The notes under the pieces were generated by a model that was not told where the DNA came from, ran no database searches, and was given only the letters and a program-made list of their open reading frames with translations. A stretch of 63,401 bases of DNA, the filler included, from Hausera hauseri (taxonomy: Eukaryota), in the NCBI GenBank assembly GCA_046269625.1. It is 11 parts of 11 records of this genome, joined end to end, with 100 filler letters (N's around TTAATTAATTAA, not from the genome) between each part and the next. Parts side by side here need not be neighbours in the genome. Positions count along the whole stretch, not along the records: positions 58,728 to 63,401 come from JBJURY010480465.1; 10 more parts are not named here. One strand, written 5' to 3'. A program made the translations under genes and the position numbers. Below are positions 15,393-63,401 of the stretch, piece by piece; the first letter of the stretch is position 1; each line of letters starts with the position of its first letter.

Positions 15393-15505
15393 CTGCCCGC
15401 CAGGCCGAGACGGAGATCCCGACCGCAAATTTTGCGCCGGTCGATCGGGGGGAGGCAGCTTCGACGTCGGCCCCAAGTCGTGCTCCAGGGCCCACTACTG
15501 CTCCC

Positions 15506-15703
15506 ATTTCCTTTTTCTTTATTTATAATAACACACACTCCACACAACACAGCCACACATTTTTACACCAGACCCGCATTTCTTCTTTCCTTGGGTCTTC
15601 AGACGTCTTCCTCACTCATCACGGCACTATCATTCATCTCAACGAAACTTTACCTTTCCCAAATCGAGCTTGCTTCAGCATACATCTCCGTATCCGCGGT
15701 GGA
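15506..15703 (+). CDS. Ubiquitin-like domain in frame with Gag (copy 2, uninterrupted)
   Basis: ISFFFIYNNTHSTQHSHTFLHQTRISSFLGSSDVFLTHHGTIIHLNETLPFPNRACFSIHLRIRGG directly followed by ATG 15704; 66 codons with no stop. Confidence 0.7.
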
Positions 15704-18700: not shown

Positions 18701-18737
18701 TGACCACAAGCCTTTACTTAACATCATGGCCATGAAA
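15704..18737 (+). mobile_element. Ty3/Gypsy element copy 2 (CsRN1-like): gag, protease, RT, RNase H; decayed and truncated
   Basis: Gag LGTQKPSDFLR..FMNALP..LDKLA; two CHCC knuckles; protease FLIDTWAAISLLP; RT SKSPWSS..KDGTFRPCGHYRHLN..DAYPLP..YIDDILV; RNase H TDASITAVGAVL..FFSRKL..ELLAI..TDHKPL. Confidence 0.95.
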
Positions 18738-32416: not shown

Positions 32417-32847
32417 TCTCACTATTTATTGTTACCTATCTGTCTATTATATTTATTATATCTTTCTAATTATGTTTATACCCTGTTATTAACTCTGTCC
32501 TGTGAAATAAAATTTGTTATAAATTATAATTTATTGTCACCTGCAAAAAAAAAGTGTATTAGTTTTGCAATAAAATTGCTGATTAAATTGTATTAATTTC
32601 TTGATTGTTTGCGTTTTTATATGTTGTGCTGTTGCCAGCTTTACATGTCAAAATAAAAATATACCTGCAACAAGAAATAAACATTTAGTACCAACATGCA
32701 AATATATTCAGTGTCCAATGATTTATCTTCCCAGTCTGAATGTTTTCTTCCCCCTGGTTCATTCAATAAGTCCTTGTCTGAGATTACCCCCAAAGAGATT
32801 TTCTCTGCCTAGGATTATCCTGGCACGGAGACCAATATTTATAATGG

Positions 32848-34789
32848 TGTTATGTCGCAGGGTAGGGTAATCGCCTACCTGCTGACAGAACCTTCTTACT
32901 TGGGGTTATGGGGTAGAAGGGTCCTTGTTGTGTCTGTGATCCTCTTCTCGACTCCCCTGGAGTTCACTATAGGTTATACACCGGTGTTAGTTTCCTCCTA
33001 TTGCGAAGTCTTCGTATAGTGGTTAGTTTTGCTTTTCCTTTTATGCTTCCTCGCCCTCTAGTCATCCATCGACTGGGTTTCTGCTTGTTTGGCGAATTAA
33101 TGGATTGTGATTAATTCGTTCCCTTTACCACCCTATTGGCTGTGATCCCACCCCATGTAGGTTGCTTTATCATGTAAGACTAAGACACTTGTGACACAGT
33201 GAACACTTGAACAATCATATTAAAACAAAATTACAAAGATTTTATTTGTGGATGTCTTAACACACATGTGGATATTCATTCAAGCATTAAGGAAATTCTT
33301 CATACAATTTGATTACCCTATGTAACTAAATCACTAATTATTGCTAACTTAAGCTGTTCCATTTCGACTGAATCGTTAATAGTTCATATCTACTGAAATC
33401 GCTGTTGCTAAATATCTTAGTCCTTATCAACACCTTGGTAGACTTTATTGCTGCCATGGATTGTTCTATGTCGAAACACTGTTCTCGCTAATAAGATTAG
33501 TACACATTAGTCTTTACCGCTTCTATGGATTGTTCTATGTCGAAACACTGTTCTCGCTAATAAGATTAGTACACATTAGTCTTTACCGCTTCTATGGATT
33601 GNNNNNNNNNNNNNNNNNNNNNNNNNNNNNNNNNNNNNNNNNNNNNNNNNNNNNNNNNNNNNNNNNNNNNNNNNNNNNNNNNNNNNNNNNNNNNNNNNNN
33701 NTTCTATGTCGGAACACTGTTCTGGGTACCAGGTAATAAAATCTGGAGCTAAATGTCTATCAAATATTCCCTGTCCATATGCTTCTTAATTAAATGTCTG
33801 TTAAATCTTCACCGTAAATCTGTTCTCATGTAATTATCAAATATTCACATCTGCTTGGGTAGGCTAATGTCTATTAAATCTGCACAGGTAATGTAACATC
33901 TCAATATTAACCTCCTTAAAACGATTTAATATGTTCAATTCTACACGACAATTCACTTCCAAGCTATCTTGTCATTGTTCTATGGGGTTAACTATTACAT
34001 GCTCTTTCGTCTTGATATGCTATGCTTTCTACGACTGCATTTCACTGAGGTAGGATCTTACGTTAGGTCGCTTATAGTCGGCGCTAATAGCTTCGATTCT
34101 GACTTAGACGCACTTTATTAATGTAGGCACTTACTATTACATCTACTCTATTCACGAGCATAATACCTGTCCTTAATGATTGCAAGCCTCGTGTTATGTC
34201 TGGCTGTTGAGTTCAATCGATGTTGGTCTCTCTAAAACGTGAGTGAGCTGAGGGATATTTCAGGATCGTGGAGTCCTGTCCCTATTAGCCGAATATACGA
34301 GTGCGTCGTTCAGTGTCTAACTCGTGCCTAACTCTGCGTCTAACTACCTTCCATTGCGGAAGCTGTTGCTGACTCACTTTTCGTCTCGAAGTCGGAGTCC
34401 TCAGTCGTCAGTCCTCCGCTTTTTGAAAAACCTTCCTTATATTTCATCTTCCTCCCCTTTTGCCCCGGTGCACGCGCCTCCTCCTGTCACCCTGCATAGT
34501 CTGTAGTTCCGCCTCTAGGTGGGGCCGAGCCTTGCATCTTTGTTCGTGCACTCCATCCGCATTTCTAAATCTGCGCGTCCATCTTATTATTGGCCGGTTT
34601 AGTGTACGCAGAAGTTATATTGTGGCATCTGTGATTCATGAGCTTGGTATGTTTGACCACAGTTACTCACTACTGTTCAGCCATTTGTTTATCGCTGTGA
34701 GGGTTCTGGTCAGCACCCACGTGTATGTTGCTGATTTTTCATGTCAAACGCGCCATCCAAGATTTATTGGCTTGGGTCATCTGGCTTAT
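32848..34789 (-). mobile_element. Putative long 5' LTR followed by a PBS-like sequence
   Basis: Minus strand ends CATAACA at 32848; TGGTCTCCGTGCCAGGAT (32834-32817) loosely resembles a tRNA-His primer-binding site; lies upstream of the long ORF. Confidence 0.4.
33457..33722. repeat. 69-bp tandem repeat spanning an assembly gap
   Basis: TTGTTCTATGTCGAAACACTGTTCTCGC.. at 33461 and 33530, resuming after the N run. Confidence 0.9.
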
Positions 34790-41418: not shown

Positions 41419-43040
41419 TTAACCCTATGTGACAGTTTGTGTACAATTTGCATCAAACCATTTTCATCGATTTATACGTGCTAGCGTTGGAGAATTTTTC
41501 TCTTGAAACCTGTTATTGCGAATTCTACACTTACCTAGCAAATAGTGAGAAACAGAATTGCAACAGTTTATGAGTGTTCATGTTCTTGTTCTTTGATGTT
41601 CACACCTGTGTGTACGAGTTGGCTTGGGGTTCAGTATTACGTTTTATCAATGGGATTTCTTCACGTGTTATGTATTTTATGAATTAAAAATAGGAAATTG
41701 ATAAGTAAAGGGCTAAAGATGTAATAAAGTTGTTTTAGTTTGAAATATTCTGAAACAGTAACTATTTGTACGAGTGTAAACCATTGTGTAAAATTCTACA
41801 CTGGAGGCTTCAATGTTGCATTTCACTAATCTCAAAGCATTTTAGTACTTTGATCAATTTTTATTGTAGTAATAATTTACAAATTGTGTTTATTATTATT
41901 TGCAATGATGTAATTTTTACAGGTACATAACATTGAGTTTTATGATTTTTCATAATTTTGTGTCAAATTTTAGATTTTGAGATTTGATTTCAATGATTTA
42001 CAATGAATACAATTAGTTCAAAAAGCCTTTATGGTACAAAGTCTACCATTGAGAATCACACTCGCACTGCACCCAAGGACAGTTATGATACTGGATTGTC
42101 AGGAAATGAAAGTGAGGATGACATACCGACACCTAATATTTGCAATTATTATGATGACGTGGAAGATGGTGGTAGTGATGAAGATGATGACATCGAGGTA
42201 CCAAGCACTTCTGGAGCTGCACCTCATGGTAGAGATACTGTATTGGAACGTGTGACAGGTGCTGCAGGTCACAAGCCAGTCCCAGTCTGAACGGAAACCC
42301 CTGCGGATGTGGATGAATTGAAGCTGTCGATCGAGTATTTCAGATATTTCTTCTCAGATGAACTATTTGACCATATGGTACAGAAAAGCAACTTGTTTGC
42401 CATACAAAGAAATGTAAACAAACCTCTACAGCTTCTTAGACACGAGCTTGAACAGTTCTTTGGAAGTGTGATGATGGTTTTCATCTTCAAGTATCCAAGA
42501 ACACAAGGGTACTGGGCAAAACAACTCAACTATAGCATATTTCCAACCTCATATCTCGTGACAATGATGGAAATCAAGAGCAACTTGCACATAAATAATA
42601 ATACAAATATGCCTGATGCTAATGATGCGAACAGATATAAACTCTTCAAAATTAGACCATTGATAGTTTCCAGTCCCTCAAAATGTCGCAGATGATGAGC
42701 ATAGATCAACAGATGAATCCTTTCAAGGGGCATAGCAACTGGAAGCAGTACATGCCGAAAAAACCTTACAAATGGGGGTACAAGATTTTCATTCTCAGCG
42801 GAAGTGATGGTGTTTCATACAATTTTGAAGTTTATACGGGGAATATTGGGCAAGCTGATAAATGCGCAGATATTGGAGCAAGTGAGAATATAGTTATGAA
42901 GCTAACAAACATTGTGCTACACAATGCAAATGCTCTGTTGCATTTTGATAACTGGTTTGCATCTTTGAATCTTCTGGTGGAACTGCACAAGAAAGGTTCG
43001 TAGGCGCTCGAAACAATCAGAAGCAATCGTCTGGGTGCTT
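41419..43040 (+). mobile_element. piggyBac element (PGBD3-like transposase pseudogene), 3' truncated
   Basis: TTAA-CCC at 41419; fragments 42003-43040: YFRYFFSDEL, KLFKIRPL, SIDQQMNPFKG..QYMPKKPYKWGYK, FDNWFAS, TIRSNRL. Confidence 0.92.
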
Positions 43041-44284: not shown

Positions 44285-45578
44285 TCGTATGTGCAAATAG
44301 TCCTGGCCTTATCGTTAATCGCTTCGTATCTACCGAAGGTGAAATCGATAAATCAAGCTGAAAAATTGCAATATGCGGCAAGGGACATTTAAAACTTACA
44401 GTCACCCAAAGTACACGATATGGATTGGAGAAAACCATGTTCGTGGTTCGAAGCAAGTGAACCCATTTAGAGTTATGTGAAATTTCAAATAATATTTGTA
44501 ACTAAATCCATGATGAGAACATGTGATTTTCCACACGGACATCATAAAAGATGCTGTGATTTGGACTTTTGACAAGCCTACGGATACAGATTTCAAATGT
44601 TCTATTCTAATCAGTTTGGAGCTCAAGCTTATATAATTACAGAACTCGTAATAAGAATGCCGCAGCGAAAGGATGCGAATCAAGTCAAGACGGACGAAAT
44701 AATCCGAAGCACTGACCCGTTTAAAAGACTCTTAGAATATAACATTATTGGGATTTCTAAGGACTTTAAAAACCAATGTATTCGAATCAAAACTAAGGTA
44801 GAACTGCATGGAGACAGACAAATTTCTGTCCGATGTATACCATTAAATGCTTCCATTCCTAACCCGGAGTATTGTTATTTGGCCAGACGCCGATCTACTA
44901 TGTGCTGTGTAATACAATTAGGACAAAAATATCAGCTGCAATTCGACTTGTACAATACGTACTCCGGAGAACGAAGTACGGGATATCGTCCGAGAATCGG
45001 AATATGGGAGCTTTCCTTCCCAACCACTACGAGAAGACCATCTACAGTTCCAAGTACAACTCTCACTACTACGATCGTCACTTCGGACGAAATGCCAGAA
45101 AGCATACCGGTTAAGATTTTAGCAAAAAGTGGTAGAATTCTATTTTACGTTGAAGAGACGTTAAATCGAGACGTCAAAATTGAATGTCGCACCCTGCACA
45201 TCAACCAAGTTGTGATCCTGAAAAAAAAATAATCAGGAAGCTGAATGCAGGTCCTTACGGCCGAAACATGACTATATAATCAGAATTATCTCAAAGGATA
45301 AGAACCCTAAAACTTATACAGTGCGGACTGTAGACAACCAAATCTAAGTGATGCGGTAAAGAGATCTTAGTACGCAGAATGCTTTTACCACAAAAGATTC
45401 TATTGAAACAAACAATTTACTGACGATAGTTAAATTAAGTTTATCAATTTTCGTTCTTGTCATATTAACGGCGATGATTTTTCTAGTTTCCAAAAATTGT
45501 AATAAGCGCTGTAAAAATCGGAAGGGAGATAAATGGGTAAAAAGGCACCAAAACGGACTTTATGATAGCATAACCTGA
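44285..45578 (+). pseudogene. Env-like type-I membrane protein (signal peptide, Cys-containing ectodomain, Thr-rich stalk, TM, YxxI tail), decayed
   Basis: YVQIVLALSLIASYLPKVKS in frame with integrase; PTTTRRPSTVPSTTLTTT; TM LLTIVKLSLSIFVLVILTAMIFLVS; KNC..LYDSIT* with TGA 45576-45578. Confidence 0.75.
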
Positions 45579-45681
45579 CAACTACAGATCGGGTTATCCT
45601 ATCATCAGACAGAGAAAATGTTTTGTTTCAAAACGGTGATGTCTTAGGACTGACCTTTATTTTTATTTCAGCAGAGTAAGT

Positions 45682-48114
45682 ATGGCCGAAAAGGCAAAGA
45701 ATCCAGCCGTCAGTTCCAACTACGACATCGATGATTTCTTACAGCAGCACGTTACTGTTCTCAAACCATTATCCAAGAGTTTATATCGACAAATTGGAGA
45801 AAATCTGTAAACCCAGACCTATCTAGAGTTCAATCAAGAGAGTAAAATACCAAATGGACTAAAATGGGGTTTAGAAGAGAATCGACTGGTCCGATTATAT
45901 GCCATGAGAAATCCCAAGGATGCACGGGCATACCTTTTAAGAGATCGGATCCCATATGAGCCGACACATCAGAAATTGTATATACATGTCGCTGATGGAG
46001 AAATTCAATACAGGATCGTAAGACAATCCTGGATTACTCAGAAAGGACAGCAATGAAAGTTTAGTACCTACGAACTATGTTGTTATAGCCTCATGAATTA
46101 TGCTCTAGAATTCAGGATCGCGGACCTTCCGACCAAAATAATGATCGAGATGACGTGGCGAATAGAGGTAATGAATCCACTACCACCATTATTATATATA
46201 CAGAAGCCAACGGAAGATGAAATAGAGCAAAATGGGGAATCTTATAGATTAGTCCCAGGTGGCCGAAATACCCGGATATTGGCAGTAAACTATGGAGAAA
46301 AGGATGACGGATGGTATGTTCCGATTGAGGTCTCTTTCAGAAATACTAATGGAGAAGAGATCATAAATAAAATAATCGCGCCTCGAGCTAGAATAAAGTA
46401 TACTTTTCCCGATGTCACAGGAATTACGAAAGTACAGCTCGAAAAGGGAAAGGATTCCTTGGAGATCCAAGAAGATATAAGCCATTGCTTCTATGTATAT
46501 ATTGTTACCGGATTCCGAGTGCACGAAGCGCTGAAGCGACTAGGAATTAGGCAAGAATACATAGCCGGAATTCCAGAATTGAGCCGAAACCCAGCAGTTG
46601 TGAGCCAAGTAAAAAATACCTTGATGCAGAAAAGAGGTTGCCTGCTTCTGTCAGCATCGCGCGAATCGCAATTTAAGATGATGCTAGAAGCCATAAATGG
46701 CGAACGATCCAAATTCCCTAAGTTGATGACAGCAAGCCAACGGCCCAAATTTATAAAAGATATCTATGACTCCTTACGATGGGATCTCGAATGGAAACCC
46801 AGAAATTACATGCAGAATGCGATATTCAACAATAATCCCAAGACCCTAATACAAAAATTCCGAAAAGGATTTAGTGAATACCCGAGTTATCGGCAAATAG
46901 TACCCCAAGAACATAACTGATTTCGAGTAACAGTTCAAAATAATCCAGTAGAAGTCCGTAACAGCCAACAGAAACCAACAACCAGTCAAGCTCAAAAAGA
47001 AACAATAGTAAAATCAAATAACCCTGACAACTCCAGAAGGCAAAAGACGAAAACTTCCTTCCTGTAATATATTAGTAAGAAGAGTAAACCTAGTAAAAAT
47101 CAAACAGACAAAAATAAACCAGCAGCCGACAGCCCAATTCAGAAGGAACCAACAAACGATGAAAAGAAAATATCGAGCCAACGAGGAACAGAGGAAAACA
47201 ACGAAAATCAGTCAAGAACTACCAAAATTGGATCGTTTAGGACAGAAATTAACGTTCTTCGGAAAAACTGGGAGGAAGATACTCCAATTATCGTTACAAA
47301 ATTCGGTCAAGTGAAGGAATATAAAAGAATCCTCGTCATGACTAAATATCATAGCAAAGGTAAAATCAGAGAAGCTATATTTTATGTATCCACTGTCCCT
47401 AGAAGAATAGTAAGTGGAAACGGATATACGAAAAAAGATACTACCATTGGCAGACACTTAGCCCCAATATTTCAATTAAAGAATGGCAATAACAGATTAA
47501 CAATTCCCGTGGATACCCAAGTTAGAATGCAAATAAAAAGACAATATAAGAAGACTGGAGTACCCGATTTGGATAAATAAGAAATAGTCGAATGGACGTT
47601 GGTTACGGTATCTGAAGATCCAAAGAAAAGTTCAGTAGACCCCAATCAAAAGAGACTATACGGATACTTATACCAAGACAGAAAAGTACTGGTATTCTAG
47701 AAAATAGAAGTGGATGAAAACCTTGTGGATATCGACGCAGCTGAAAAGGAAGAATGTCCCGTTTGCGATGCGGATCTCTATCAAGGATTCGTAGTATTGG
47801 ACAACAAGGATTGCAGTCACAAATATTGCACGTACTGCTTAAAAATGTGTACTGTGAAAAATGGGAAAATGATCTGTACAGTAAGTAGAGCCGAAGCTAC
47901 AAGGCTGAGACACTACTCAAATGGAGAAAACAAGAAAATAGTAGAGATACTACCCGAAAGGGCTACTACATTCTACCATTTTAACTCGAAATCGCAATCG
48001 AACGAGGCGCATTCGGAAGCGGACTTAAGCGGACGAATGGACCGATTACGCGGCACCTCTACTGATGCAACGGGCACATCCGAGAGTGCCGTTCAGGGAG
48101 AAGAAATGTTGTGA
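45682..48114 (+). pseudogene. ~810-codon accessory ORF with C-terminal C3HC4-type RING finger (copy B; one frame, several stops)
   Basis: ATG 45682 and track ORFs 46093, 47311, 47710 share a frame; CPVC..CSHKYCTYC..CTVS; the stop overlaps the LTR start. Confidence 0.85.
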
Positions 48115-48686
48115 AATGATCAACTTTGCAAAATCGTACTAAACGAAACTGTTATCGAAACGGAAACCAAAACAAATTGATTATAATTGAATGTAGTGCA
48201 CAATCCGATATAAAGTTCGAGGTATTAACTAGTGTATATAAGCCGGAAATTATTAAAATTGTGTAAATAGTCAACCAATTTAATTGAAATAAAAAAAATT
48301 GCAAATCGAAGAAAAATATTTTAAATATACGAGTCCAGAACTGTATATAAGTGGATGGATTTATGTACAGTCGTCAGTAGTTAGCCAGTTGTTAATCAAT
48401 CAATTTGAATAAACAGAATCTACATTTGCATCGAGAAGAGTTCACGACTAATAGAAAGACATTGAATTGCATTGTGAATCTTCGATATTGTTATTGGTAT
48501 TTTTCCTTGTTGTTTAATAAATTTTCGTTGCAAACTCTCATATAGTTTTCCGTCGCTCCTTACGAGGGACTTTCACCACACTAAGTTTCAAAATTGATTT
48601 AAACTTCATAAATAGGTCGAGATCCGATAACTACGCAATGCACCACACGCAGTACAAGCATCATAAACTAGTGCATACATTCTAAC
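48095..48686 (+). mobile_element. PPT and 3' LTR of env/RING element copy B (truncated by contig end)
   Basis: AGGGAGAAGAAA (48095-48106) then TGTTGTGA at 48107; same arrangement as copy A. Confidence 0.8.
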
Positions 48687-49490: not shown

Positions 49491-51727
49491 AGAAAAAAAG
49501 ACATTCAAAGGGTCTCTCCTGTAAAAGGCAAAGACGAAAACAATTTGTCAGCTCATACATTCGGCACAGTTGTCCAAAACGAATTCTGCAGCCTACAGTC
49601 AACAACCAGGTGATTTAGATTTAGAGTTACAAACGCTGAATGATAGTGCAGAACCCATTCTGCTGACAGGAGACGCTGAAGGCGCATACGACCAAAAGGA
49701 CCAAAACGGTTGGGATTCGACGGTACCCGGTGAAGATGACGACAATGCAGCAACAATAAAATTAGTCAACAATAAAAAATACCCAGACTATTCTTTTATA
49801 AGTACTCGTACCATTGGTCCTTTTACATTGCGAACAAATATGAAGGCCGACAGATATGGATTTCGAGACGATTTTTTGTCCGACGCTAACCTGATCTCCA
49901 GCAATTGTATGACATAATGGTGGAAATAATGTGCCGACACTAGTGATACGCAGGATGGTTGATGTCGTTATACAGCAAATCGAGGAATATGAAACAACAC
50001 TAAATTCCCTTGAAACAAATTTGAAGATGCACGAAAATTATGCGTCCGATAGTCAAATGGCTGACTCCAGCTGTTTGACCGATCATTTGTCCAACATTGT
50101 CAAAGAGCACGCTTTAATTTCTCTCGATTTAACTCTGAATCAAGATGAGTTATCCGTTGACAACTTTGAGCCTATTGAGCTTTCGCCTACAGGACGAATA
50201 CTATCAAGTTCATTGGATAAAGACAAACCTGGTTCAATATCGACTGATTCATCTACTGATGCAAACATGGAACGAATTTTGTCGGATTTGCATCTGACAA
50301 ATAGTGAAGATGACGATAATTATGTTATAATACCGCGTGACGTACTTGTCGTCAAAACTACGTTAATCAAAATATCGTACGTTTTTGTTGACCCATTTAT
50401 TGGTATTTTACCGGCAATAGGTATACTACTCACCATCCCAAGGACAAGATTTGTTGTTTTTATACCGGAATTCTACGTTATATATGTTGGCCAAATAGGA
50501 TCCAATCAAATCCCAAAGGTATCCGAAATTGTACACCTTTAGGTTATTGCCTACGATTCACCTTTTTCGTACAAATTCTCCCCCGTAAGATATCAATCAA
50601 CGCGTGTCCTGCATACACTCGAAGATTCGTAGTTTGCCCAGGTGAACGGACTATATTTGACAGACCTACGCCACCTTACATCGAATGAGTTATGATCTCT
50701 TTTGTTGCCATGTAATAAATATAATATACATTTTATGGTTATCCGTCTTTTTTCGATAACACGGTATTATTTTTGTTACACATCCTTTTCCATGTTGATT
50801 GTGCCGGTTCTCAACACCGATTCTCAGTTTTGTTTTTTGGTTTTTTATTTATTGCCAATGTGAACAAAGTGGTCGTACATGTCGTTTTTCCTGAATTCAA
50901 TACTCCTCACCATTCGAATATCGTCAAAGATACCGATACTTTCCAAATTTTCAAAACAATGGTTACAGTCGTAATCGCGTGTTGGTTTCAACATACGACT
51001 GATTTCGACAAATTTATTAAACTATATAACACTGAAATATGCCTTGTTATAAATTTCGATGGGCTGGAATGGATGGACACATTTTGTAACATTTTCATTA
51101 TTTCCCTTTGTGCACAGCCACGTTTCAACCGATTGCGTAGTTTCTTCCATTTTATTACCGGTAACTATTACCGACGGTCTTTTGAACCATACTTTTCGGA
51201 TGATACGAATGGTAGGTATGGAATATTGACATCTATCTCTCTTTTGCACCTTGAAGACATTAATATGGCTATTACGAATTACATTATCTCGAGTTAGACC
51301 TATTTTTACTAATAATTCGGTCGTTGGAACCATTGCTGGATATTCCCGGATTTCCTTTAACGAACGGTGCGTGACATTCTCTGTTTCAATCATCAGAAGG
51401 TTACAAGTCCCGTCCAAAAAATATCACAATGTTCTATCACCGCGGCAACCTGTAGTACATAACATAACCGCCTCTCCTTCCTCAACGGGTTTTGTTTTTT
51501 GTACCGCTTCAATACTACCCGTTTATCACCATATTGAAAGATTACCAATTTATTGGCGAGGGGTGATTGATTCTTGAGTCATCGCTTCTTTCTCTAACTT
51601 TACACCATCGGTTGAATTCTACGACAAGCCTCTCTTTTCACCTCAGATATTTTAACCCCGTTGTAGTGGATCTAATCTTTCAGCTGTTACACCAACGACC
51701 GTGGGGTACGGAGAGCGATGCGCAGGA

Positions 51728-51948
51728 ATGCTAAACCGCCCAACCGGCTGCCTATTACCTACACACTTAACTTTGTTTTTTAAATAATAAATTAGTACAT
51801 ACTCTAAATGTAATAAACCATATAGATATTACACTTTTATATGACCATATTTATATGACTCAACGGCTTTGTCCTTGATAGTCTTCAAGACATTGCCTTT
51901 ACGTATTACTACCTCTGTTTTCGCATTATTCCTAGAGTCCGTGGTGGG
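51728..51948 (+). pseudogene. Ubiquitin-like domain preceding Gag (copy 3; deletion/frameshift)
   Basis: MLNRPTGCLLPTHLTLFLNNKLVHTLNVINHIDITLLYDHIYMT / NGFVLDSLQDIAFTYYYLCFRIIPRVRGG then MQ. Confidence 0.65.
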
Positions 51949-53930
51949 ATGCAATCCTATTCCACCATTGGCACTACGGACGATCCTGCTAAACCTAAAT
52001 CGATTATTTACCTCAAAAAACAATGTAACCTTAAACCATCAATAACTCCTCAAAACTCTTGTAAGACTTCTCTGTATGAGCAAACGGATATCAACCCATC
52101 TCAGTGTACCGAATATTTTATTGACAACCAAAATTCTAGCAAAACTTGATTGCAGTTTCACCAACTATGGCTTGAATCTTGCGACATTACTGATTTTTTG
52201 GCTAAGGCTAACAATCTTCTATTCCTCCTCTCAACCAACATCAAAACTCGTATCCACAATCTTATGGATATTTTTCAGCAGGCCGACCCTTATACTCAGC
52301 TTTATATACTCTATAATTCATCGCTTCTTTAATCATAATGCAATGGGAACACAAAAGCCTTCTGAATTTCTGCGTATGTCGTTGACTCACCTTCAAACGC
52401 TAGGTGTAACCAAGCAGCACAATTCCGACCTTCTGCGACGATATTTCTTAAACGCGTTGCCTACACAAATTAGGGCACTTTTTACCGTTGTTGAGGAATC
52501 TACGGTGTTGGATAAATTAACCGAATTAGCTCATAAAGCACATGAAGTGCTACAATTGAATTCCCAACCAATTGTATCAGCCGCGGTCACAACAAGCGAC
52601 AACCAACTCAATACATCAATAGAGCAACGGTTGAGCCAACTATGCGTTTAAAACTTGGCACGACAACAGACAATAAATAACATTAATAATAGGTTAAACG
52701 ATCTTTCATTACCACGACGAAGTGTCCTTTTTTAACCTTACCCGTTCTGTTTCCAAAAATCGGTCACCATCGCCTACACGATCTTATGTATGCTATTATC
52801 ATAACACATTTAATAATAAAGCTAATAAATGCTGTTTAGGGTGTAGATATTACACTCCACATTTACATTCAGACAAAATTGTTTGCATCTATCGTGCGAA
52901 ATTTGGATTTCACGCTCAGTGTCTTTCAGGGTGCAACTATAAGAACAACGCTAACCATACCACCGGCAGAAGTTCTATTTCCCCTTGTAATAGTCGGCCG
53001 ATCTCACCAATTCAAAAAAACTAATTTCGCCGCCAGTACTCACGGCAGAGTCTGGCAAAGGCAACTTCCCTAACACTAACTGCCGATACACTTGCAGTTT
53101 TTACACTAAAGGCTTCGATAACCACACCAACAACTCAATCTGTAGACTTTCTTATTGACACGGGTGCTGCGGTTTCTTTGCTGTTACTCTCCTTCTCTGT
53201 ACAAAATTCACCATTCAAAACTAAATTATTATTTACGGCTTCCGGACTACCGCTCGACATTTTAGGTACATCTAAATTATCGTTCACCTTACCAAAATTT
53301 CACTCCCAGTTTCATTAGCCGTTTACCGTCGATAACGTCCGCACAGTTATACTAGGTTCCGATTTCTTATCCCACTTTAATCTTTTAGTTGATTGCAAAC
53401 AACAATGTCTGAAAAGTAACACTACTGGATAACGTACCAAGCAAATAAACAGTATATCCGCTATAGCGTGAACGATTTTCCGACAGAAATCTATACTCAA
53501 ACATCCTATAACTAATCTAAACTTCTTCAACAAGCATTTTTCATTTCGTAAATTTTTAATGATAATATTGATATCTCGTGGAGATTTGGCTTTGGCAACT
53601 ACGGTTGTGTTAGTTCGGTACCTTCCCTAGACAAAATTACCTCTTCGAACACTATTTTCAATACTACTATCCTACATTAAATTCCACTTGATTTCACTAG
53701 CTCAAAATTCACTCGTCACTGCATATATTAACTCAATACTCCTCCCAACACCCAATGTCACAATTGCCTGCAAGCCTACGGCAATACATGCGCACTTCAT
53801 GTCCCCGTTTAATCCAAAAGGGCCGATCTTTCACTTCTACGGGTAGCACTATTCATCACATCATAACGCAACATGAACGACCTATTCGTCAAAAGGTGCG
53901 TCCATTGTCACATCGTCGTAGGAAAACTGA
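51949..53930 (+). mobile_element. Ty3/Gypsy element copy 3: decayed gag, protease, start of RT
   Basis: MGTQKPSEFLR..FLNALP..LDKLTEL; CYYH..KCCLGC and CIYR..CLSGC; FLIDTGAAVSLL; HHIITQHERPIRQKVRPLS. Confidence 0.92.
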
Positions 53931-54030
53931 NNNNNNNNNNNNNNNNNNNNNNNNNNNNNNNNNNNNNNNNNNNNTTAATTAATTAANNNNNNNNNNNNNN
54001 NNNNNNNNNNNNNNNNNNNNNNNNNNNNNN

Positions 54031-57000
54031 ACGTTGAGGTACTTGATGACGTTGGAATTGTTGTAGGTATGGTTGATTCAATACTCGAAGTCACAGTGCT
54101 TGTTGTCGTTGGAATTGTTGTCGATGTGGTCGGTACCATAGTAGATGTTGAGGTACTTGTTGACTTTGGAATTTCTGTAGATGTGCTTGGTACTATACTA
54201 GACGTTGAGGTACTTGATGACGTTGGAATTGTTGTAGGTATGGTTGATTCAATACTCGAAGTCACAGTGCTTGTTGTCATTGGAATTGCTGTAGTTGTGG
54301 TCGGTGCCATACTAGACGTTGAAGTACTTGTTGTCACTGGAATTTCTGTAGATGTGGTTGGGACTATACTAGACGTTGAGGTACTTGATGTCGTTGGAAT
54401 TGTTTTAGATATGGTTGATTCAATACTCGAAGTCACAGTGCTTGTTGTCGTTGAAATTGCTGTCGACGTGGTCGGTACCATAGGAGATGTGGAAGTACTT
54501 GTTGTGGTTGGAATTTCTGTAGAAGTGGTTGGTACTATACTAGATTTTGACGTACTTGCTGTCGTTGGAACTGTTGTAGATATGGTTGATTCAATACTCG
54601 ACTTCACAGTACTTGCTGTCGTTGGAATTTTTGTCGATGTGGTCGGTACCATATTAAATGTTGAGGTACTTGTCGTCTTTGCAATAGTTGTCGATGTCAC
54701 AGTGCTTGTTGCCTTTGGAATTTTTGTCGATGTCAAAGTGCTTGTTGTCGTTGGAATTGTTGTCGATCTGGTCGGTACCATACTAGACGTTGAGGTACTT
54801 CTTGTCGTTGGAATTTCTGTCGATTTGGTTGGTACTATACTGGGCGTTGAGGTACTTGATTTCGTTGGAATTGGTGTAGATATGGTTGATTGAATACTCG
54901 AAGTCACAGTGCTTGTTGTCGTTGAAATTGTTGTATTTATGGTAGACACAATACTCGACTGCACAGTCCTTGTTGTCGTTGGAATTGTTGTCGGTGTGGT
55001 CGGTACCATACTAGACGTTGAGGTACTTCTTGTCTTTGGAATTTCTGTTGATCTGGTTGGTACTATACTAGGCGTTGAGGTACTTGATTTCGTTGGAATT
55101 GTTGTAGATATGGTTGATTCAATACTCGAATTCACAGTGCTTGTTGTCGTTGGAATTTCTGTCGATGTCACAGTGCTTGTTACTGTTGGAATTGCTGTTG
55201 ATGTCGTCGGTACAATAGTATATGTTGGGGTACTTGTTGTCGTTGGAATTACTGTCGAGGACTCAGTATTTGTTGACGTTGGAATTGCTGTCGATGTGGT
55301 CGGTACTATAGTAGATGTTGATGCACTTGTTGTAGTTGAAATTTCTGTCGATGTGATTGGTACTATTCTAGACGTTGAGGTACTTGTCGTCATTGGAATA
55401 GTTGTCGATATCACAGTGCTTGTTGACGTTGGAATTGCTGTCGATGTGGTCGGTACCATAGTGTATATTGAGGTACTTGTCGTCATTGGAATAGTTGTCG
55501 ATGTCACAATGCTTGTTATCGTTGGAATTACTGTCGATGTCATAGTGCTTGTTGACGCTGGAATTGCTGTCGATGTGGTCGGTACCATAGTATATGTTGA
55601 GGTACTTGTTGTCTTTCGAATTTCTGTCGACGTCACAGTGCTTTTTATCGTTGGAATTTCTGTCGATGTCATAGTACTTCTTGTCGTTGGAATTACTGTC
55701 GATGTCATAGTGCTTGTTGTCGCTGGAATTGCTGTCGATGTGGTCGGTACCATAGTGTATGTTGAGGTACTTGCCGTCATTGGAATAGTTGTCGATGTCA
55801 CAGTGCTTGTTGTCGTTGGAATTGTTGTCGATATGGTCGGTACCATACTAAATTTTGAGGTACTTGTTGTCTTTGGAATTTCTGTCGATATGGTTGGTAC
55901 TGTACTAGACGTTGATGTACTTCTCGTCTTTGGAATAGTTGCCGATGTCATCGGTACCATACTCAATGTCATAATGCTAGTTTTCGTTGGAATTGCTCTC
56001 GATATAACTGGTAACATACGAGACGTGACGGCACCTGTTGTCGTTGGAATTATTGTATATATGTTTGATTCAATACTATATGTCACTCTGTTTGTTGACC
56101 TTGGAATTGTTGTCGATGTGGTCGCTACCACACTCGATGTCGAAGTACTTGTTGTCGTTGGATTTGTTGTCTTTATGGATGCTATCATACTAGATTTTCC
56201 GGTACTTGTATTCTTCAGAATTGTTGTCGATGTCGTTGGTACCATATTGGACGATGTCGTGCTTGTTCTCGTTGGAATTGTTATCGATGTGGTTGGAGCC
56301 AAATTATTCGTTGGGATAATACGTTGTGGAAATGTAGTCATTGTGATTGGCGGTATGATTGGAGAACTCGTTTTTATTGATGTAGAAATGACATTTGTTG
56401 CTGTGTTTGTTAATGTTTTTGAATAAGTCATTTTAGTTGATGAAATGCTTCTAGACAATTCGGTTATATTGATTTTTTTTGATACATTAGTTGAATTTGT
56501 AGTCCTGTTTTGTAGACGTATGGACATTGAAATTGGTGACATAGTGGAAAATATTGAAGTCGAAGGATGTGATTCGTTTGGATAAATTGTAGCAGTTGTG
56601 CGCATAGAAGAGTTTGTAGATTCAGTTGACCCTGCTGTTGCTGTCGTTGTAGGAAGTATATTGGTCGTCATGTTTGCTTGCGTACTTTTATTCCTGTTAT
56701 CATCTGTGCTGTTAGACTTACTTGATGAAAGTATAGTATTGGTACTTTCAAATTTCGTTCTTACCGTTTGTAGTGTTGAAGTTGAAGAAATAGTTGGTCT
56801 ACTGTTTGAAACCATTGTTTGAATAATTTTATCCGGTATGTTTGAAAACATAATGGAAGACATTAAGGAAAACGAATTTGTCTTTTTTGAATCTGTAATC
56901 TTTTCATGTTTCGCCGAACTTTGTGATGTCACAGATGATGTCTTTGTAGTCGTAGTTGGAGGAACCTTAAATACCGTACTGGACATGATACTTGGCACAG

Positions 57001-58084
57001 GTTTAGTTTCTGTTTTATACGATATTCTTAAGGAATTTTCAATGGATGTCTGCGCATTTGTATGAATTGACGTTGATATCGAACCTGTAGACGGGGCAAT
57101 GAAAGATGCTGTACTCTTAATATGAGGATCATTTGTTTCAGAAGAAAACGTATCGTATTTACTTGTTAAAGTTGAAGTCGAAAATTGTGAACTGCTGTTG
57201 AGAGAATCCATCATCAAACTTGACGTTACTTTAGATATTTTGTTTGAAGTTTGAGGGAAAATGTTAAGTGTACTTAAAGTCATACTGGTGGAAACGGTAA
57301 ATGAATTTTCTGACGTTTCGTTTGGAAATGTTGATAAAAACGATTGTAATTTCATACTTGAATTAGTAGATGAAACTGTACCAGTATTAATTGACGTTGT
57401 TGCTGAGGAAATTATGGACTTTTCTTTCGAGATATTATCAGGATTAATTGTAGTTAGTGTTCCTTCTGTTAGATTTGTATAAATGTTTTGTAAGGTTGAA
57501 CTTTGATTAATGTCCGTTACAATTTGTGAAGAAATTGTTTCATTGATTATAGTTATCGGACCTGAAGAATCACGTCCGTTAAGTGTCGTTTCAATTGATT
57601 TATCCGTAGTTATTGGCTTGGATTCTGAAGTAGAAAAAGAGCTTTTACTTGTTTCATCTGTCGTATTTGACATGTTTATAATTAAAGTATCTTGTGTACT
57701 GTTTGAGATAGATTCAGTCATTTTGAATATCGTAGTTTGAAATGTGCTTACGTTCGGTGATGTCGTCATATCTGTCACAATTTCACTAGTTTTAGATCGC
57801 GTCAATAGTACCGGATAGGTTGACAATTTCAATCTGTTGAAGCTTGTTATGTGTTCTTTATTATTTGCAACTGTTACAGTTGATTTTGATGATGACGAAG
57901 TTATTGTAGTAAAATGATTGGAACAGACACAGTTCATGAAAAAAATATGATTCCATTGTTTTTTGCACTGACAAAATGGTATTGTTTGTAAATTCGAAAC
58001 ACCGATGTAACAGAGTCCATTAGAAATATTAAACTTGAAGGTTGTCACATTACGACTTAATGCATAAACTGCACAATGAACCAT
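54031..58084 (-). CDS. Mucin-like protein: Cys-rich (PAN/apple-like) N-terminal part and long Thr/Ser/Pro repeats; C-terminus missing
   Basis: About 1350 open codons; HCAVYA..TFKFNISNGLCYIG; 19-aa (57-nt) repeats in 171-nt higher-order units. True start unclear. Confidence 0.85.
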
Positions 58085-58785
58085 ACTTCGTCTACTGAGT
58101 ATTTCAGCTGCATGTGAAATGTTATACTTCCTGCAGATCCATCTAATCTGATTTTTGTCTCACTACTTAATATCTCATACAACAAACGTATGAAATATTC
58201 CAGGAGATTAGATTCGAACATTGATCTAGATTTAATGCCCATGACACCGATCTGTACAGCTGTTGGGGGTTTTGTGGATGATGTATACATACAGCAACTT
58301 CAGTTCAAACATAACCATTATCGCAATTAAATATATATATTACCACTTTGATTAATATAAAATTAAGTATACAATCATGTGTTATAAATGTATTATAAAA
58401 TGGACATGTGAATATAAACTTTATTACAACAACATTTAGTCTGAATCTTTATCCCTCTTGTCCACCCATGCTGCCAACCATGCATTACTATACTTTTCAC
58501 CGCCAATGCTTTGCAATAAAGATATTTTACATGTAAATATCTTCCTGTTTTCGTACTATAAGGCAGCATTGTTCGATCGGTTTCTGCAAACTAGACAATT
58601 TTTCTTGACTTGCATCTAACCGACAAANNNNNNNNNNNNNNNNNNNNNNNNNNNNNNNNNNNNNNNNNNNNTTAATTAATTAANNNNNNNNNNNNNNNNN
58701 NNNNNNNNNNNNNNNNNNNNNNNNNNNGACGTATACTCAATTCAAACTCAGTGAAGAATGAAAGTTCATATTAAGAAAAACTGAC

Positions 58786-59460
58786 ATGCAACTGATGAAT
58801 TTAATCACAAAAATACCGAAGTTACACGATTCAGTGAAATATTTTAACTACATCGAGATTACAATTATGTTGATAAAAAATTATTTCAAACGATTAATAA
58901 ACATTTCGGAATATATCGACAATTTCAAAAACAAAACACTCAGCTGTCGTTCAACTCAATTCGATAAATTGGAATTATTTATGAAGATGTCTGCTCCATT
59001 TCTACGTGATTTTAACATAAATTGTAATAATTCTAAGAATAAATTTACACAGAAAATGATGCTGAAAGAACGCTTTATTTACGTTCTTAAAAAAGCGAAA
59101 GAACAAAGAACACGTTTGAAATCGTACGTCAAGAATCTGAGAGATAAAATACATTGCGTCGAAAGGAAATTACAAATGTCAAACGAATTGATACAAAAAC
59201 AAAGTACTACAAATTTCAATGAAGATGTATTATCGATGAGAAACGACATTTAGTCAATCTACCCGAATAATGATGGGAATGAACGAAAATATTTTGAAAA
59301 CAGAAATTCTGAATTAGAAAGTATAAAGGACGAAGAAAAACGCCATAAAATTTTTCACAACAAATTTCAGGAATTAATTGGAAATTTATACGTCTATTGT
59401 CGAATTAAACCAAGTCCGTACAGTTGTCTAAAATTATTGTATGAAGATAAAATTATGGTG
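58786..59460 (+). pseudogene. Kinesin-14 coiled-coil/neck fragment
   Basis: After the stop at 59253 the frame reads EEKRHKIFHNKFQELIGNLYVYCRIKP, the kinesin-14 neck (LHN..QELKGNIRVFCRVRP); motor domain absent. Confidence 0.75.
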
Positions 59461-59739
59461 TCGATTAAAAAGATTGTACAAAATGAAATAAAACATGTAG
59501 ATAAATTCATGTCAGAAAAAATTGTTACGAATTTAATGAGTTCGATTGTTAAATTGCCGATTTTACTCTGTTCATTAAAGAGTTATGATCTATATATGAA
59601 TTTCAAAGATATTAACACACATGTCGGTAATGTGTTATTATTTACCACCATTTCAAAAATTTATTTTTATAACGTATTAATTTTCCTCACAGTTGCAGTA
59701 ATGTATTTTGGTAATGTATTATTATTTATCACAGTTGTA

Positions 59740-60470
59740 GTTTACCCAACCGATCAAAAGAGAGAAGCACTATTGTTGCTGGCTCATATTTTTCAGCGAA
59801 AAATTTGTCAAGATAGTGGGACGTTTTCCTCAAATTCCGGTCGAATTAATAAATTGCCAGATGAACAACTTATTGGAATATTAAAATACCACGAATTAAA
59901 GGCAAAAGGTAATCCAGAGGTTTTACGTAAAGGATTGAAGGAATTTATGAAACGACAAACAAAAAATGACACTGATCAAAATGCTGAATCGTTGTCTATT
60001 GAATCATTATATTCTTATTTTCTTATGATTGATTTCGAGGTAACTTGTGATAAAATGAATAATCGATTTAAACACAAAATTATCAAATTTTTGATTATAC
60101 TTTATGATGTAGTTTTAAATCGCAAATTTGAAACTACAAAAATGGTTAAATAAACACCATGTTTTCGGAATCATTCACTATTGTTTGATATTGTAATATT
60201 GATATGGCGAAATTCATGAGAATTCAGTGTGAAATCCGTGGTATTGAATTTCCATCATGGTGTAAACAACGGAATAACATAACAAAAAGTTTTCGACAAT
60301 TCTATAAGATATCTAGTTTATTGAAACCCAATTTACAAAAAATGTTGAACAGTCTTGGATTAGCGTTCAAAAGTCAACAACACAAGGGACTGAACGATGC
60401 AGAAAATGCTCCCCGAATCACCGAAATAATTCTAAACGACAGATGTGGTCTGCAGATAAACGAAAAGTTC
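59740..60470 (+). pseudogene. ERI1: ERI1 3'-5' exoribonuclease fragment (SAP + DEDDh) with internal deletion
   Basis: SAP RINKLPDEQL..LKAKGNPEVLRKGLK; YFLMIDFEVTC; DMAKFMRIQC..MLNSLGL..HKGLNDAEN..LQINEK. Confidence 0.85.
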
Positions 60471-60529
60471 GATAAGAGTTCGCCGCATTTTACAGCAACT
60501 ATATCCAGGAAAGAAGATGAATCAATGAT

Positions 60530-62262
60530 GGTAATTTATAAAGATATTCGTATGAAAGAAAATCAAATGGTAGATGAAATGGAACAAATCAGCACAATAG
60601 TTGGTAAGAAATTACAACGTCGAGGGCAATTGCAGCTGACAAATAATGATTATAAAACAACTAAACGCGGTGGTGCGAGTGTAAGAGCACGAGCCCAAAA
60701 GGATTTAAAAAGAGTAATGCAAAAAATTCAAAGTGTACCAAATCGATTTGAAAACATTAAGTCTCAATACGAAAAAGCCCGTTCACTTGAGGATGATGTT
60801 GCAAATAACCTTAGTTATGCTGAACATCGTCGGAATGAATTATTTACGAAACAGGGCCGAGTTAATCAATTTCAAAGCAGAACACAAAAAGACGAATGGA
60901 TTAAGGAATAAATGAAGAGTTTAAATAAAGCGATAAAAGATAACGAAAATACAATTAAAAATTGTCGGATGAAATCGATTTGGATTCTAATCGAATCGAA
61001 GTTCTAAACAAAGAACTGGTTGGTGCTGAAGCCAGTATTGAAGGAGTTCGAATGGAATTGGAAGCGGTGCCCGAGGAGTTACGTAAATTCCGCCGAGAGA
61101 AAGATGAGGTCCAAGCAAATCGACAGACAGTTTATCGACAAGAAAGTAAAGTTCAACAGCAGTTAAACAATTTGCGTGATGAGCTCGATCAAACTGAACA
61201 CAATTTGAGGTCGATTATCGGCAAAAGTATATTAAACGGTTTGAATTCTGTCATACGCGTTATTGAGATATTTTGTGAAAAATTTGGTTCAGAATGTGTC
61301 ATCGTTAATGGATACTATGGCACATTGATTGAATTGATTAACTATTTAGACACGTTTAATGCGAGCGTTGAAGTTACCGTCGGTACGAGATTGTTTTATC
61401 ATGTTGTCGAAAATGAAGAACTCGTTATAAAAATTCTCCAAGAAGTGAACAAACACAAATTTCCGGGAGAAATTAATTTCTTCCCGATCAATCGATTGCA
61501 TGCCAGAGAATCTACATATCCGGATACGAACGATGTAATTCCAATGATATCGAAACTTGAGTTTGACAATCAATTTCATAATGTGATGCTGTACCATTTT
61601 GAAAAGACTTTGGTTTGTAGAAGTATTGAAATTGCTGTGCAGTTGACTAAAAGTTTAAATTTTGTTTGCGTTACGCTTGATGGTGTTCAGGTTTCTCGAA
61701 GAGGAACCCTTACCGGTAGCTACTATGATCAAAGATTGTTAAGACTTGAATTACAAAAAAGAAGCAGAAAACGGAGACGGAAATTCAGGAAACGGGGAAT
61801 GTACAACAGAATAACATTAAACGAAAAGAAACGTTAAATTCTAAAATTAATGACATTATCGACGAACTTCAACGAAAAGAGACGATTCAGTCGAAACACG
61901 AATTGACATTTGATAAGTTGAAGAAAGATATCCATATTTGGAAGAAAGAATTGCATGCAAAAACTGAGGATAAACCTCAGAAGGAATGGGAATTGACGTC
62001 GTTGAAACACGATCTGGAACAGATGAAATATACAAGGAAATCGTATCAAATTGAACTTGGAACAGAATTGAGTCAACTATCGCCTACGAAACAACGGGAA
62101 GTTGATAGACTGAATGAGAAAATACAATGTCTGACTGCCAGTGCCAAGGAGGCTTACAGCGCAAGGATGGAATTGGAAGCAGAAAAAACAGAAAATGAAA
62201 CTTTATTGTATCGTAATTTAATAAGAAAAAAGGATCAATTAGAAGCCAAATTGACTGAATTG
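60530..62262 (+). pseudogene. SMC3: Cohesin SMC3 coiled-coil and hinge fragment, intron-less, with stop and frameshifts
   Basis: LFTKQGRVNQFQS..DEWIKE; GYYGTLIE..VEVTVGTRLFYHVVE..PGEINFFPINRL..PMISKL..TLDGVQVSRRGTLTGSYYD; ELGTELSQLS. Confidence 0.93.
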
Positions 62263-62400
62263 ACCAATTTGTTAAATGTTGAAGTCAATGGATTGGAAGA
62301 TGGATACGAAAAGAGAAACTTAGATGGCAGTGGTTTAAAAGTTCATTTAATTGAACGTCTAAATAAATATGACAAAGAACAAGAATCAAAAGAAGCTTCA
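62263..62400 (+). pseudogene. SAP-domain fragment fused after the SMC3 fragment
   Basis: [28 protein letters not shown] resembles the SAP consensus LKVxELKxELxxRGLxxxGxKxxLIxRL. Confidence 0.55.
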
Positions 62401-62520
62401 AGAAGGGCCGATGCCATACCAAGACCAATTGAAAATGACGAGAATTTAAAAGGTAACAGATAGTACACAAAATGTTTTTCAAAGTTATGCTTAATATCAT
62501 CTTCCTTGAACATTATGTCT

Positions 62521-62900
62521 GTGTGTCCTCCAATGCCAACATTAATACCATAGTCATCCAGGACCTTTCCATCATTGATCCTATTATGGAGCTGGTTGGG
62601 TGTGGAGTTGAGCGAGTGTCCGCCTCCATCGTCTTCGTCAGAGTCATAGTCATCAAGAATGGGAGTTTCGCGAATGGGCATTCCAATAACAGAGCCGCCA
62701 TGCTGGTGAGTGCCTCGAGAACCACGATAGCTGTCACGGCCCTGCGGACCAAGCAGGATGGAGGGAATATAGTGAATCTCATGGGTGGCCTCAGTGCTAG
62801 CGCTCTTCTGAGGAATCCGGCGACGCTTGCACCAACGGTGGCGGGTATACAGGACAAGGGTGAAGAGAAGAATCAGAAGGAGGAGGGCAATAAGACCTCC
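62521..62900 (-). CDS. ASTN2: Astrotactin-2 internal exon (vertebrate, probably fish), 3' end cut at a junction
   Basis: Acceptor TTTTCTTAG, then [70 protein letters not shown], nearly identical to vertebrate ASTN2; no stops. The junction position is approximate. Confidence 0.92.
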
Positions 62901-63401
62901 CTAAGAAAAAAAAGGAGAGGAAAATGTGAAGTTAAAAGAAGCTGTGCAATTGGACAATGTCAGTGATGTGAAATGGCACAGAAACTTGGAGAAGCGCTTT
63001 GAAATCAAAGCAAAGGAACAGAAGAAGAATGAGGACGATGAAGAAACCCATGGACATTGGTACGTTGGGTTGTTCTTCTAACTGCTTGACAGTCCAGTTT
63101 GTTTGGTCTTTTTCCTGATGGTTCTTGGTTTTATATAATTTCTTTAAAATGCTCCTTCCATTTCACCTTATTTTCCAACTTCATTTATTGTCTTCACAGA
63201 TCTTGTTACCAACACGGACAACCCAACACCTCCTCAAACCGTAAGTGAACAAAAACTAAACGTTCTGAAATAATTAGACGTCAAGAGAAAGGCTCTATGT
63301 TTAAAAAAACTGACAAATATATAAAGAACAATCACTATCTGTTCATTATGGGACTAAGAACTCAAAAGGTATTGAACTGTTTGAGATGAAAGTCTGATGT
63401 A

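What the first reader, a model, noticed from the sequence alone, without database searches (positions are those of the whole stretch)
58786..62463. Fourth mosaic: kinesin-14, ERI1, SMC3 and SAP fragments chained on one strand
Seen: four unrelated decayed fragments; ERI1 to SMC3 and SMC3 to SAP are in-frame joins; 1.7 kb of SMC3 has no intron. The captured genes across all mosaics are largely proliferation or germline type (SMC3, TAF1, NOG1, Tudor, ERI1). Inference: capture from stem or germ cell mRNA; fragments could seed small RNAs against the parent genes.
Basis: partly seen in the sequence, partly recalled or inferred. Interest (0 to 1): 0.7.

Follow-up and report, generated by a model that had tools for sequence, protein, structure and literature searches.

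The report
Chained gene-fragment retrocopy in parasitic flatworm
A fish-parasitic flatworm carries a decaying chain of pieces of four unrelated genes joined end to end in one reading frame, most likely stitched together from messenger RNAs by a retrotransposon, a process known from flies and maize.

Summary
The chain is real. It lies on a 4.7-kb unplaced contig (58728-63401) of a neodermatan-like flatworm. It holds a kinesin-14 neck (weak), ERI1, 1.73 kb of intron-free SMC3 and a SAP domain (weak), all in sense. An independent DNA run (X1) bridges the ERI1-SMC3 join and shows different lesions, so the copy is drifting neutrally. The last 930 bp are a functional fish astrotactin exon and intron, most likely an assembly chimera, so the element's 3' part cannot be seen. 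Best reading (about 0.55): a multi-parent retrocopy made by template switching in a Ty3/Gypsy LTR element, like the three other contigs here where gene fragments sit upstream of an R[IV]RGG-Gag. No LTR, Gag or shared DNA ties this contig to them. The ubiquitin-like domain was not confirmed, the 'germline-type cargo' claim is unsupported, and piRNAs are unlikely because Neodermata lack Piwi. This is a new variant of a known mechanism (LTR-mediated retroposition, maize Bs1).

The parts
58728..63401 (.). Unplaced contig holding the finding; preceded by an artificial 100-base N/six-frame-stop linker (58628-58727)
58762..59250 (+). Unassigned 163-codon frame, same frame as the kinesin piece, separated by one stop (59251-59253); possibly kinesin stalk or a further captured piece
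   Evidence: no informative match
59302..59478 (+). Kinesin-14 (Kar3/Ncd-type) neck and start of the motor domain, fragment
   Evidence: weak (best E 9e-4 in PDB, 2e-4 in Pfam, below cut-off)
59422..59823 (+). Unassigned 134 codons, open in the kinesin/ERI1 frame, with a degenerate 42-nt (14-codon) repeat at 59621-59732; probably a fifth coding fragment
   Evidence: 0 stops against 10 and 12 in the other frames; 0 of 20000 simulations open; D2; no atlas hit
59824..60132 (+). ERI1 (3'hExo) SAP domain and first part of the DEDDh nuclease
60139..60515 (+). ERI1 nuclease, second part, after a ~41-codon deletion with frameshift; the C-terminal ~63 aa are absent
   Evidence: the deleted segment is seen as a loose end in X1
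60516..60540 (+). ERI1-SMC3 join, in frame
   Evidence: bridged by X1 record 6, 60397-60738
60540..62262 (+). SMC3 aa ~278-849 (coiled coil, hinge, coiled coil), intron-free, decayed: one stop, two frameshifts
62263..62460 (+). SAP-domain fragment (Tho1/hnRNP U-like), in frame with SMC3
   Evidence: weak
62473..62491 (.). About 19-20 nt shared by the flatworm and fish sequences; probable site of a chimeric join
   Evidence: the extent on the X1 side is inferred from bin depth
62473..62902 (-). Fish astrotactin exon with its splice acceptor (AG at 62902-62901); under purifying selection; not part of the mosaic
   Evidence: 15 of 17 shown differences to other fish runs are silent
62903..63401 (.). 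Fish-type intron and repeat DNA

Best explanation
A multi-parent processed retrocopy. Spliced host mRNAs (kinesin-14, an unknown repeat protein, ERI1, SMC3, a SAP protein) were co-packaged with the RNA of a Ty3/Gypsy LTR retrotransposon. Reverse transcriptase switched templates several times and chained internal, doubly truncated sense fragments. Chains that kept one open reading frame were favoured while the element RNA was expressed. After insertion in the germ line of a fish-parasitic flatworm, the chain has decayed neutrally. Shown: the pieces, the absence of introns, double truncation, in-frame joins, decay, and one join in a second sample. Inferred: introns in the parent genes, template switching, the carrier (the R[IV]RGG-Gag family seen on three other contigs), and selection for frame.
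For: No intron in SMC3 aa ~278-849. Neodermatan SMC3 models carry insertions at aa 345, 450, 655 and 778 and gaps at 681-703 and 816-866, which read as retained introns and skipped exons. A mean monogenean exon of 289 bp (PMC4040987) gives a rough chance of 0.003 for such an unbroken stretch. Pieces are cut at both ends, with no 3' ends and no A-run of 7 or more; partial duplication and multi-parent chimeras are the LTR signature in PMC5131818 (passages). 3 of 3 joins between named pieces are in frame (1 in 27 by my arithmetic), plus 134 open unassigned codons. In 3 of 3 contigs that hold this Gag, host-gene pieces lie upstream on the same strand (TAF1 in the third is a recalled motif, Pfam shows only a weak bromodomain), and one contig has reverse transcriptase. 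Decay: 16-17% of invariant SMC3 sites are changed, against 0-8% in five intact orthologues; 14-15 of 21 shown X1 differences change the amino acid. X1 bridges two joins.
Against: No LTR, primer site, Gag or pol on this contig, and no DNA or translated similarity to the three Gag contigs. The organism's own parent genes were not seen, so neither intron loss nor microsimilarity at the joins was tested. The SMC3 3' end (aa 849) coincides with the start of a gap in the Mesocestoides model (850-868), so a splice-made join cannot be excluded. No bridging record for SMC3-SAP is among the 8 X1 records shown of 184 laid, and 2 X1 contigs leave the window sequence at 62295. Copy number is unresolved: X1 depth fits two or three haplotypes as well as paralogues. 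The kinesin and SAP assignments are below family cut-offs.
Confidence: 0.55

Rival explanations
1. A chimeric retrogene or retrocopy made without an LTR carrier (LINE template switching or successive retro-fusion), possibly translated for a time as one ~1,200-codon host fusion protein before decay.
For: All named joins are in frame, and 58762-62460 reads as one frame apart from a few lesions. No retroelement sequence lies on the contig.
Against: No fragment keeps its 3' end or poly(A). No fused ERI1-SMC3 protein stands out among the 150 best of 250 HMMER hits: the top ERI1 rows end near query aa 113 and the top SMC3 rows start near 118. Three similar chains in the window sit next to Gag.
Confidence: 0.17
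2. DNA-level capture by a Helitron or Pack-TIR element, from intron-poor parent genes or from retrocopies that already existed.
For: Such elements capture multiple gene fragments (PMC6431247, passages). The ends of the block are not visible. Parent structures are unknown.
Against: No retained intron in 1.73 kb of SMC3 or ~0.7 kb of ERI1. All pieces are in sense and in frame. No terminal inverted repeat within 58728-62491 (only short chance pairs).
Confidence: 0.13
3. The chain itself is an assembly artefact, or spliced cDNA contamination mis-joined in a poor short-read assembly.
For: The same contig is very probably chimeric at its 3' end, and the window is a bin of small unplaced contigs.
Against: X1 differs from the window at 21 or more places and yet bridges ERI1-SMC3 and the entry into ERI1, with depth across the whole chain and no joint listed. 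Stops, frameshifts and loss of invariant residues exclude cDNA of the working genes.
Confidence: 0.05
4. The fish astrotactin exon is a true fifth cargo, horizontally acquired from the host.
For: It abuts the SAP piece directly, and the break falls 2 nt from the exon's donor site.
Against: It is on the opposite strand and keeps its intron and acceptor. CpG observed/expected is 0.58 against 1.41 in the chain. 15 of 17 shown differences to other fish runs are silent. X1 contigs reach only about 20 nt into it. About 20 shared letters would explain a mis-join.
Confidence: 0.07

Closest known systems
LTR-mediated retroposition in animals (Tan et al. 2016, PMC5131818; passages read)
   Same: Partial, intron-free, sense mRNA pieces; more than one parent gene per copy; frames often kept; older copies decay.
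   Different: Here there are four or five parents in 3.7 kb, against 'two or more' in the abstract and two in the example read. Flanking LTR sequence and microsimilarity were not shown here.
Maize Bs1 (as described in PMC5131818)
   Same: A chain of exonic pieces of several unlinked genes.
   Different: Bs1 has three parents, one out of frame, and proven LTR flanks; it is a plant element.
Planarian Burro/GYPSM1 giant Gypsy elements (PMC6431247, passages read)
   Same: A flatworm Gypsy element whose long frame carries host-like motifs, including Smc and ankyrin.
   Different: Burro has Gag at the N-terminus of a ~4,900-aa polyprotein. Here the pieces are recognisable, decayed copies of the organism's own genes, and in the sibling contigs they lie upstream of Gag, each contig with different cargo.
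Cellular insertions in pestiviruses, including ubiquitin (PMC13517609, passages read)
   Same: Mosaic capture of host mRNA pieces next to ubiquitin-like sequence; a functional analogy for the RGG-Gag idea (ubiquitin as a cleavage signal is recalled).
   Different: An RNA virus without reverse transcription. The ubiquitin-like nature of the domain here is unconfirmed.
Helitron and Pack-MULE gene-fragment capture (PMC6431247, passages read)
   Same: Several unrelated gene fragments in one block.
   Different: DNA-level capture is expected to keep introns (recalled); none was seen here.

Membership tests
LTR-mediated retrocopy | Captured sequence lacks the parent's introns | tested here: inconclusive
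   No intron in 1.73 kb; orthologue models imply introns; own parent gene not available
LTR-mediated retrocopy | Partial mRNA pieces without poly(A) tail | tested here: met
LTR-mediated retrocopy | Flanked by LTR-retrotransposon sequence | tested here: inconclusive
   None on the contig, but it ends 34 nt upstream of the first frame and is cut by fish DNA downstream
LTR-mediated retrocopy | Microsimilarity at switch points | not testable with these tools
   Needs the parent DNA; a 7-nt direct repeat is visible at the SMC3-SAP join (sequence), untested
LTR-mediated retrocopy | Secondary multiplication | tested here: inconclusive
   X1: 184 contigs over the whole stretch (62/51/38/33 at 99+/95-99/90-95/<90%), several distinct indels; alleles, paralogues and parents cannot be told apart
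R[IV]RGG-Gag Ty3/Gypsy family of this window | Gag-protease(-RT) downstream of the cargo | tested here: inconclusive
   Absent from this contig, which is truncated; present in 3 other contigs at 64-68% DNA identity to each other
R[IV]RGG-Gag Ty3/Gypsy family of this window | Ubiquitin-like fold before the Gly-Gly motif | tested here: inconclusive
   Motif in 3 of 3; no Pfam or PDB match; model pLDDT 46, no fold match
LINE-type processed pseudogene | Intact 3' end with poly(A) and target-site duplication | tested here: not met
   ERI1 and SMC3 lack their 3' ends; no A-run of 7 or more; the true 3' end of the block is not visible
Helitron / Pack-TIR | Element termini bounding the block | not testable with these tools
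   Contig ends hide them; no TIR within the stretch
Helitron / Pack-TIR | Retained introns in captured pieces | tested here: not met
   None in SMC3 or ERI1
Burro-type giant Gypsy | N-terminal Gag in one intact giant polyprotein | tested here: not met
   Chain is decayed and has no Gag; in siblings the cargo precedes Gag
piRNA source locus | Host has a Piwi pathway and reads map to the locus | not testable with these tools
   Piwi lost in Neodermata; no small-RNA data

The most novel reading that the evidence does not exclude
A family of Ty3/Gypsy elements in a Piwi-less parasitic flatworm serially captures host mRNA pieces in frame upstream of Gag. It tolerates any such cargo because a Gly-Gly-ending ubiquitin-like module lets host deubiquitinases cut Gag free. 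That would explain the position of the cargo, its variety between copies and the selection for in-frame joins. It would make the element a standing exon-shuffling machine and a possible source of siRNAs against host genes.
Probability: 0.2. Interest if true: 0.8.

Novelty: new variant of a known kind. Interest (0 to 1): 0.5.

Why it matters
The mechanism is known, but chains of four or five parent genes, all in frame and recurring with different cargo in one small sample of contigs, would be an unusually heavy case in an animal. It arises in a lineage without Piwi, where transposon control is an open question. If the Gly-Gly/Gag link holds, it offers a testable rule for why cargo is kept in frame. 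In practice it also flags two traps in such assemblies: false duplicates of SMC3 and ERI1, and host-parasite chimeric contigs that mimic horizontal transfer.

Tried and rejected
No own genome is held, so the parents and flanks could not be read. No RNA holder was listed among the 4 runs. Word-based protein searches for the kinesin piece and for the RGG-Gag region found nothing among longer proteins (weak evidence). Atlas searches for 58762-59250 and 59254-59823 gave no usable hit; the atlas call for the SAP piece failed. Ubiquitin-like domain: no Pfam, PDB-sequence or fold match, and the model was too poor to judge. No tRNA in the window. No shared DNA or translated sequence between this contig and the Gag contigs. 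Three look-ups of earlier findings were empty. I first thought the upstream frames might be a long ERI1 N-terminus, since flatworm ERI1s reach 905 aa; rejected, because none of 150 hits aligned upstream of 59824. I first noted 49913-50100 as Nup58-like, then read it as TAF1 continuing (both recalled, neither tested; one search returned an error). X1 has almost no cover at 62492-62783; a hole alone proves nothing. Paper searches (listings only) showed no description of such elements in monogeneans or other fish-parasitic flatworms; a direct monogenean search timed out and was not repeated, subscription papers are not covered, and no supplements were read.

Full report
Setting. The window is not one locus. 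It is a string of 11 small contigs or scaffolds joined by 100-base linkers of N with a six-frame stop word, and no whole genome is held. The finding lies on the last contig, 58728-63401 (4,674 bp). Neighbouring contigs need not be neighbours in the genome.

Observation. SMC3 is certain. 60540-62265 aligns without an intron-sized gap to aa ~275-851 of Schistosoma mansoni SMC3 in three frames, with one stop (60909-60911) and two frameshifts (near 60957 and 61757-61782). ERI1 is certain. The closest of the 150 hits listed (P0024, unnamed, 377 aa) aligns over aa 42-144 and 195-313 at 58% and 62%; about 41 codons are missing at ~60137 and the last ~63 residues are absent. None of those 150 proteins aligned upstream of 59824. 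The kinesin-14 neck (best E 9e-4; the ten best of 17 PDB rows are Kar3 or Ncd) and the SAP domain (E 0.012-0.017) are weak but consistent. In addition, the frame of the kinesin piece stays open through 134 unassigned codons into ERI1: 0 stops against 10 and 12 in the other two frames, and 0 of 20,000 composition-matched simulations were open. That stretch holds a 14-codon repeat and is probably a fifth coding piece. So 3 of 3 joins between named pieces are in frame (1 in 27 by my arithmetic, with the caveat that two assignments are weak).

Organism. The 13 best of 23 SMC3 hits are all trematode, cestode or monogenean (57-63% identity). In a tree of the window piece and 16 of those 23 proteins (left out: S. 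japonicum P0015, and P0013, P0017, P0020-P0023), the piece groups with neodermatans against Macrostomum and other spiralians with support 100, but its place among them is weak (64). No planarian was in the set. A fish-parasitic neodermatan, perhaps a monogenean, is therefore likely but not proven.

Is it real? Contigs of four public runs were laid on the stretch. Run X1 has depth in every bin from 58728 to 62471, and no joint is listed. Of the 8 X1 records shown (184 laid), one spans 60397-60738 across the ERI1-SMC3 join and one spans 59714-60131 across the entry into ERI1. None shown spans SMC3-SAP, and 2 contigs leave the window sequence at 62295. X1 differs from the window at 21 shown places in the chain (211 further rows were not shown), so it is unlikely to be the source sample. 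Some X1 contigs lack lesions of the window copy and others carry different frameshifts; one 428-bp contig shares the frameshift near 60957. This shows at least two differently decayed versions; alleles, paralogues and parent genes cannot be separated.

Decay. At columns invariant in a panel of eight orthologues, the window piece differs at 22-25 of 133-145 (16-17%). Intact orthologues tested the same way differ at 0 of 133, 2 of 135, 3 of 136, 3 of 136 and 12 of 145. Of the 21 shown X1 differences, 14-15 change the amino acid. At 7 SMC3 sites checked, X1 has the orthologue residue at 4, the window at 2, and 1 is unclear. Both lineages are drifting.

The 3' flank is host DNA. 62473-62900 on the minus strand is a vertebrate astrotactin exon (Pfam E 3.5e-22) with its acceptor. 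Runs X2-X4 match it at about 95%, and the loose end listed for X4 at 62473 carries a canonical donor that the window lacks. 15 of 17 shown differences are silent. CpG observed/expected is 0.58 there against 1.41 in the chain. X1 appears to run about 20 nt past 62471 (inferred from bin depth), so parasite and fish share about 20 letters: a likely seed for a mis-join. Whatever follows the chain in the real genome is lost from view.

RNA or DNA origin. The parent genes were not available. Indirectly, among 22 SMC3 models aligned to S. mansoni (P0023 left out), those of other flukes and tapeworms carry insertions at aa 345, 450, 655 and 778 and gaps at 681-703 and 816-866, and one ends at 657. I read these as mis-called introns inside the interval. 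With the mean exon of 289 bp reported for Gyrodactylus salaris (PMC4040987, passages), an unbroken 1,726 nt has a rough chance of 0.003. The pieces are cut at both ends and there is no A-run of 7 or more, unlike LINE retrocopies. The SMC3 start (~278) lies past the apparent intron at 268. Its end (849) coincides with a gap in one tapeworm model (850-868), though other models put the intron at 867-868, so a spliced join is not excluded there.

Carrier. Three other contigs hold a related Gag-protease region (64-68% DNA identity), one with reverse transcriptase. Each has R[IV]RGG just before Gag and host-gene pieces upstream on the same strand: NOG1, PPR and Furry; tyrosine kinase, Tudor and ankyrin; and a weak bromodomain in what I recall as TAF1. 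NOG1 and PPR share one ORF, a further in-frame join. However, this contig shares no DNA or translated sequence with them, and the ubiquitin-like domain could not be confirmed. The link is by analogy.

Mechanism. Most likely (0.55), template switching between co-packaged mRNAs during LTR-element reverse transcription, as described for Drosophila, other animals and maize Bs1 (PMC5131818, passages), with selection for an open frame while expressed and neutral decay since. Rivals: a non-LTR chimeric retrogene (0.17), DNA-level capture (0.13), real capture of the fish exon (0.07, a question about the flank), full artefact (0.05). The boldest reading (0.2) is that a Gly-Gly-ending module lets host proteases free Gag from any in-frame cargo, by analogy with ubiquitin insertions in pestiviruses (PMC13517609, passages; the cleavage role is recalled).

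Enrichment for proliferation or germline genes is not shown, as half the identified cargo is general and no background was tested. Heritable retrocopies must arise in germ or stem cells in any case, and a tapeworm LTR-type element is expressed in stem cells (PMC4558846, passages). Piwi is lost in Neodermata; flatworm-specific Argonautes bind transposon siRNAs in Schistosoma (PMC8191739, passages). Only an siRNA version of the idea is open, and it is untested.

Verdict. A real, decayed, in-frame chain of host gene fragments of probable RNA origin: a new variant of a known kind. The nearest flatworm precedent is Burro (PMC6431247, passages), which differs in layout. The listings of six paper searches showed no report of this in fish-parasitic flatworms; one search failed. 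Interest 0.5, limited by the missing flanks and parents.

Noticed in passing
window 62473-63401: Host-parasite chimera. The fish part itself looks composite: in runs X3 and X4, 63034-63322 matches closely (0 and 4 differences) but sits in other flanks.
   Followed up: partly
window 4030-5830, 15500-18737, 51860-53930: Three related Ty3/Gypsy Gag-protease(-RT) copies, each with R[IV]RGG directly before Gag and different host-gene fragments upstream; ubiquitin fold unconfirmed.
   Followed up: partly
window 9826-12410 (-) and 45387-48124 (+): Two diverged copies of an unidentified multi-ORF element (signal or membrane segment, long ORF, RING-like finger); no Pfam name except a weak RING; may be an undescribed mobile element or accessory region.
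   Followed up: no
window 53975-58159 (-): Long Thr/Ser-rich mucin-like ORF (about 1,370 codons, cut by the contig end), single frame.
   Followed up: no
window 18838-23643 and 480-760: CACGTG-rich satellite filling a whole contig, with a short similar tract upstream of the first mosaic.
   Followed up: no
window 42291-43003: Decayed piggyBac-type transposase (Pfam DDE_Tnp_1_7).
   Followed up: partly
window 23744-34789: Scaffold with CpG depletion (0.53) and a 936-codon coiled-coil ORF on the minus strand; may be fish DNA mixed into the bin.
   Followed up: no
window 51025-51423 (-): Antisense 133-codon frame between the cargo and the RGG-Gag region of one element; no Pfam match.
   Followed up: no
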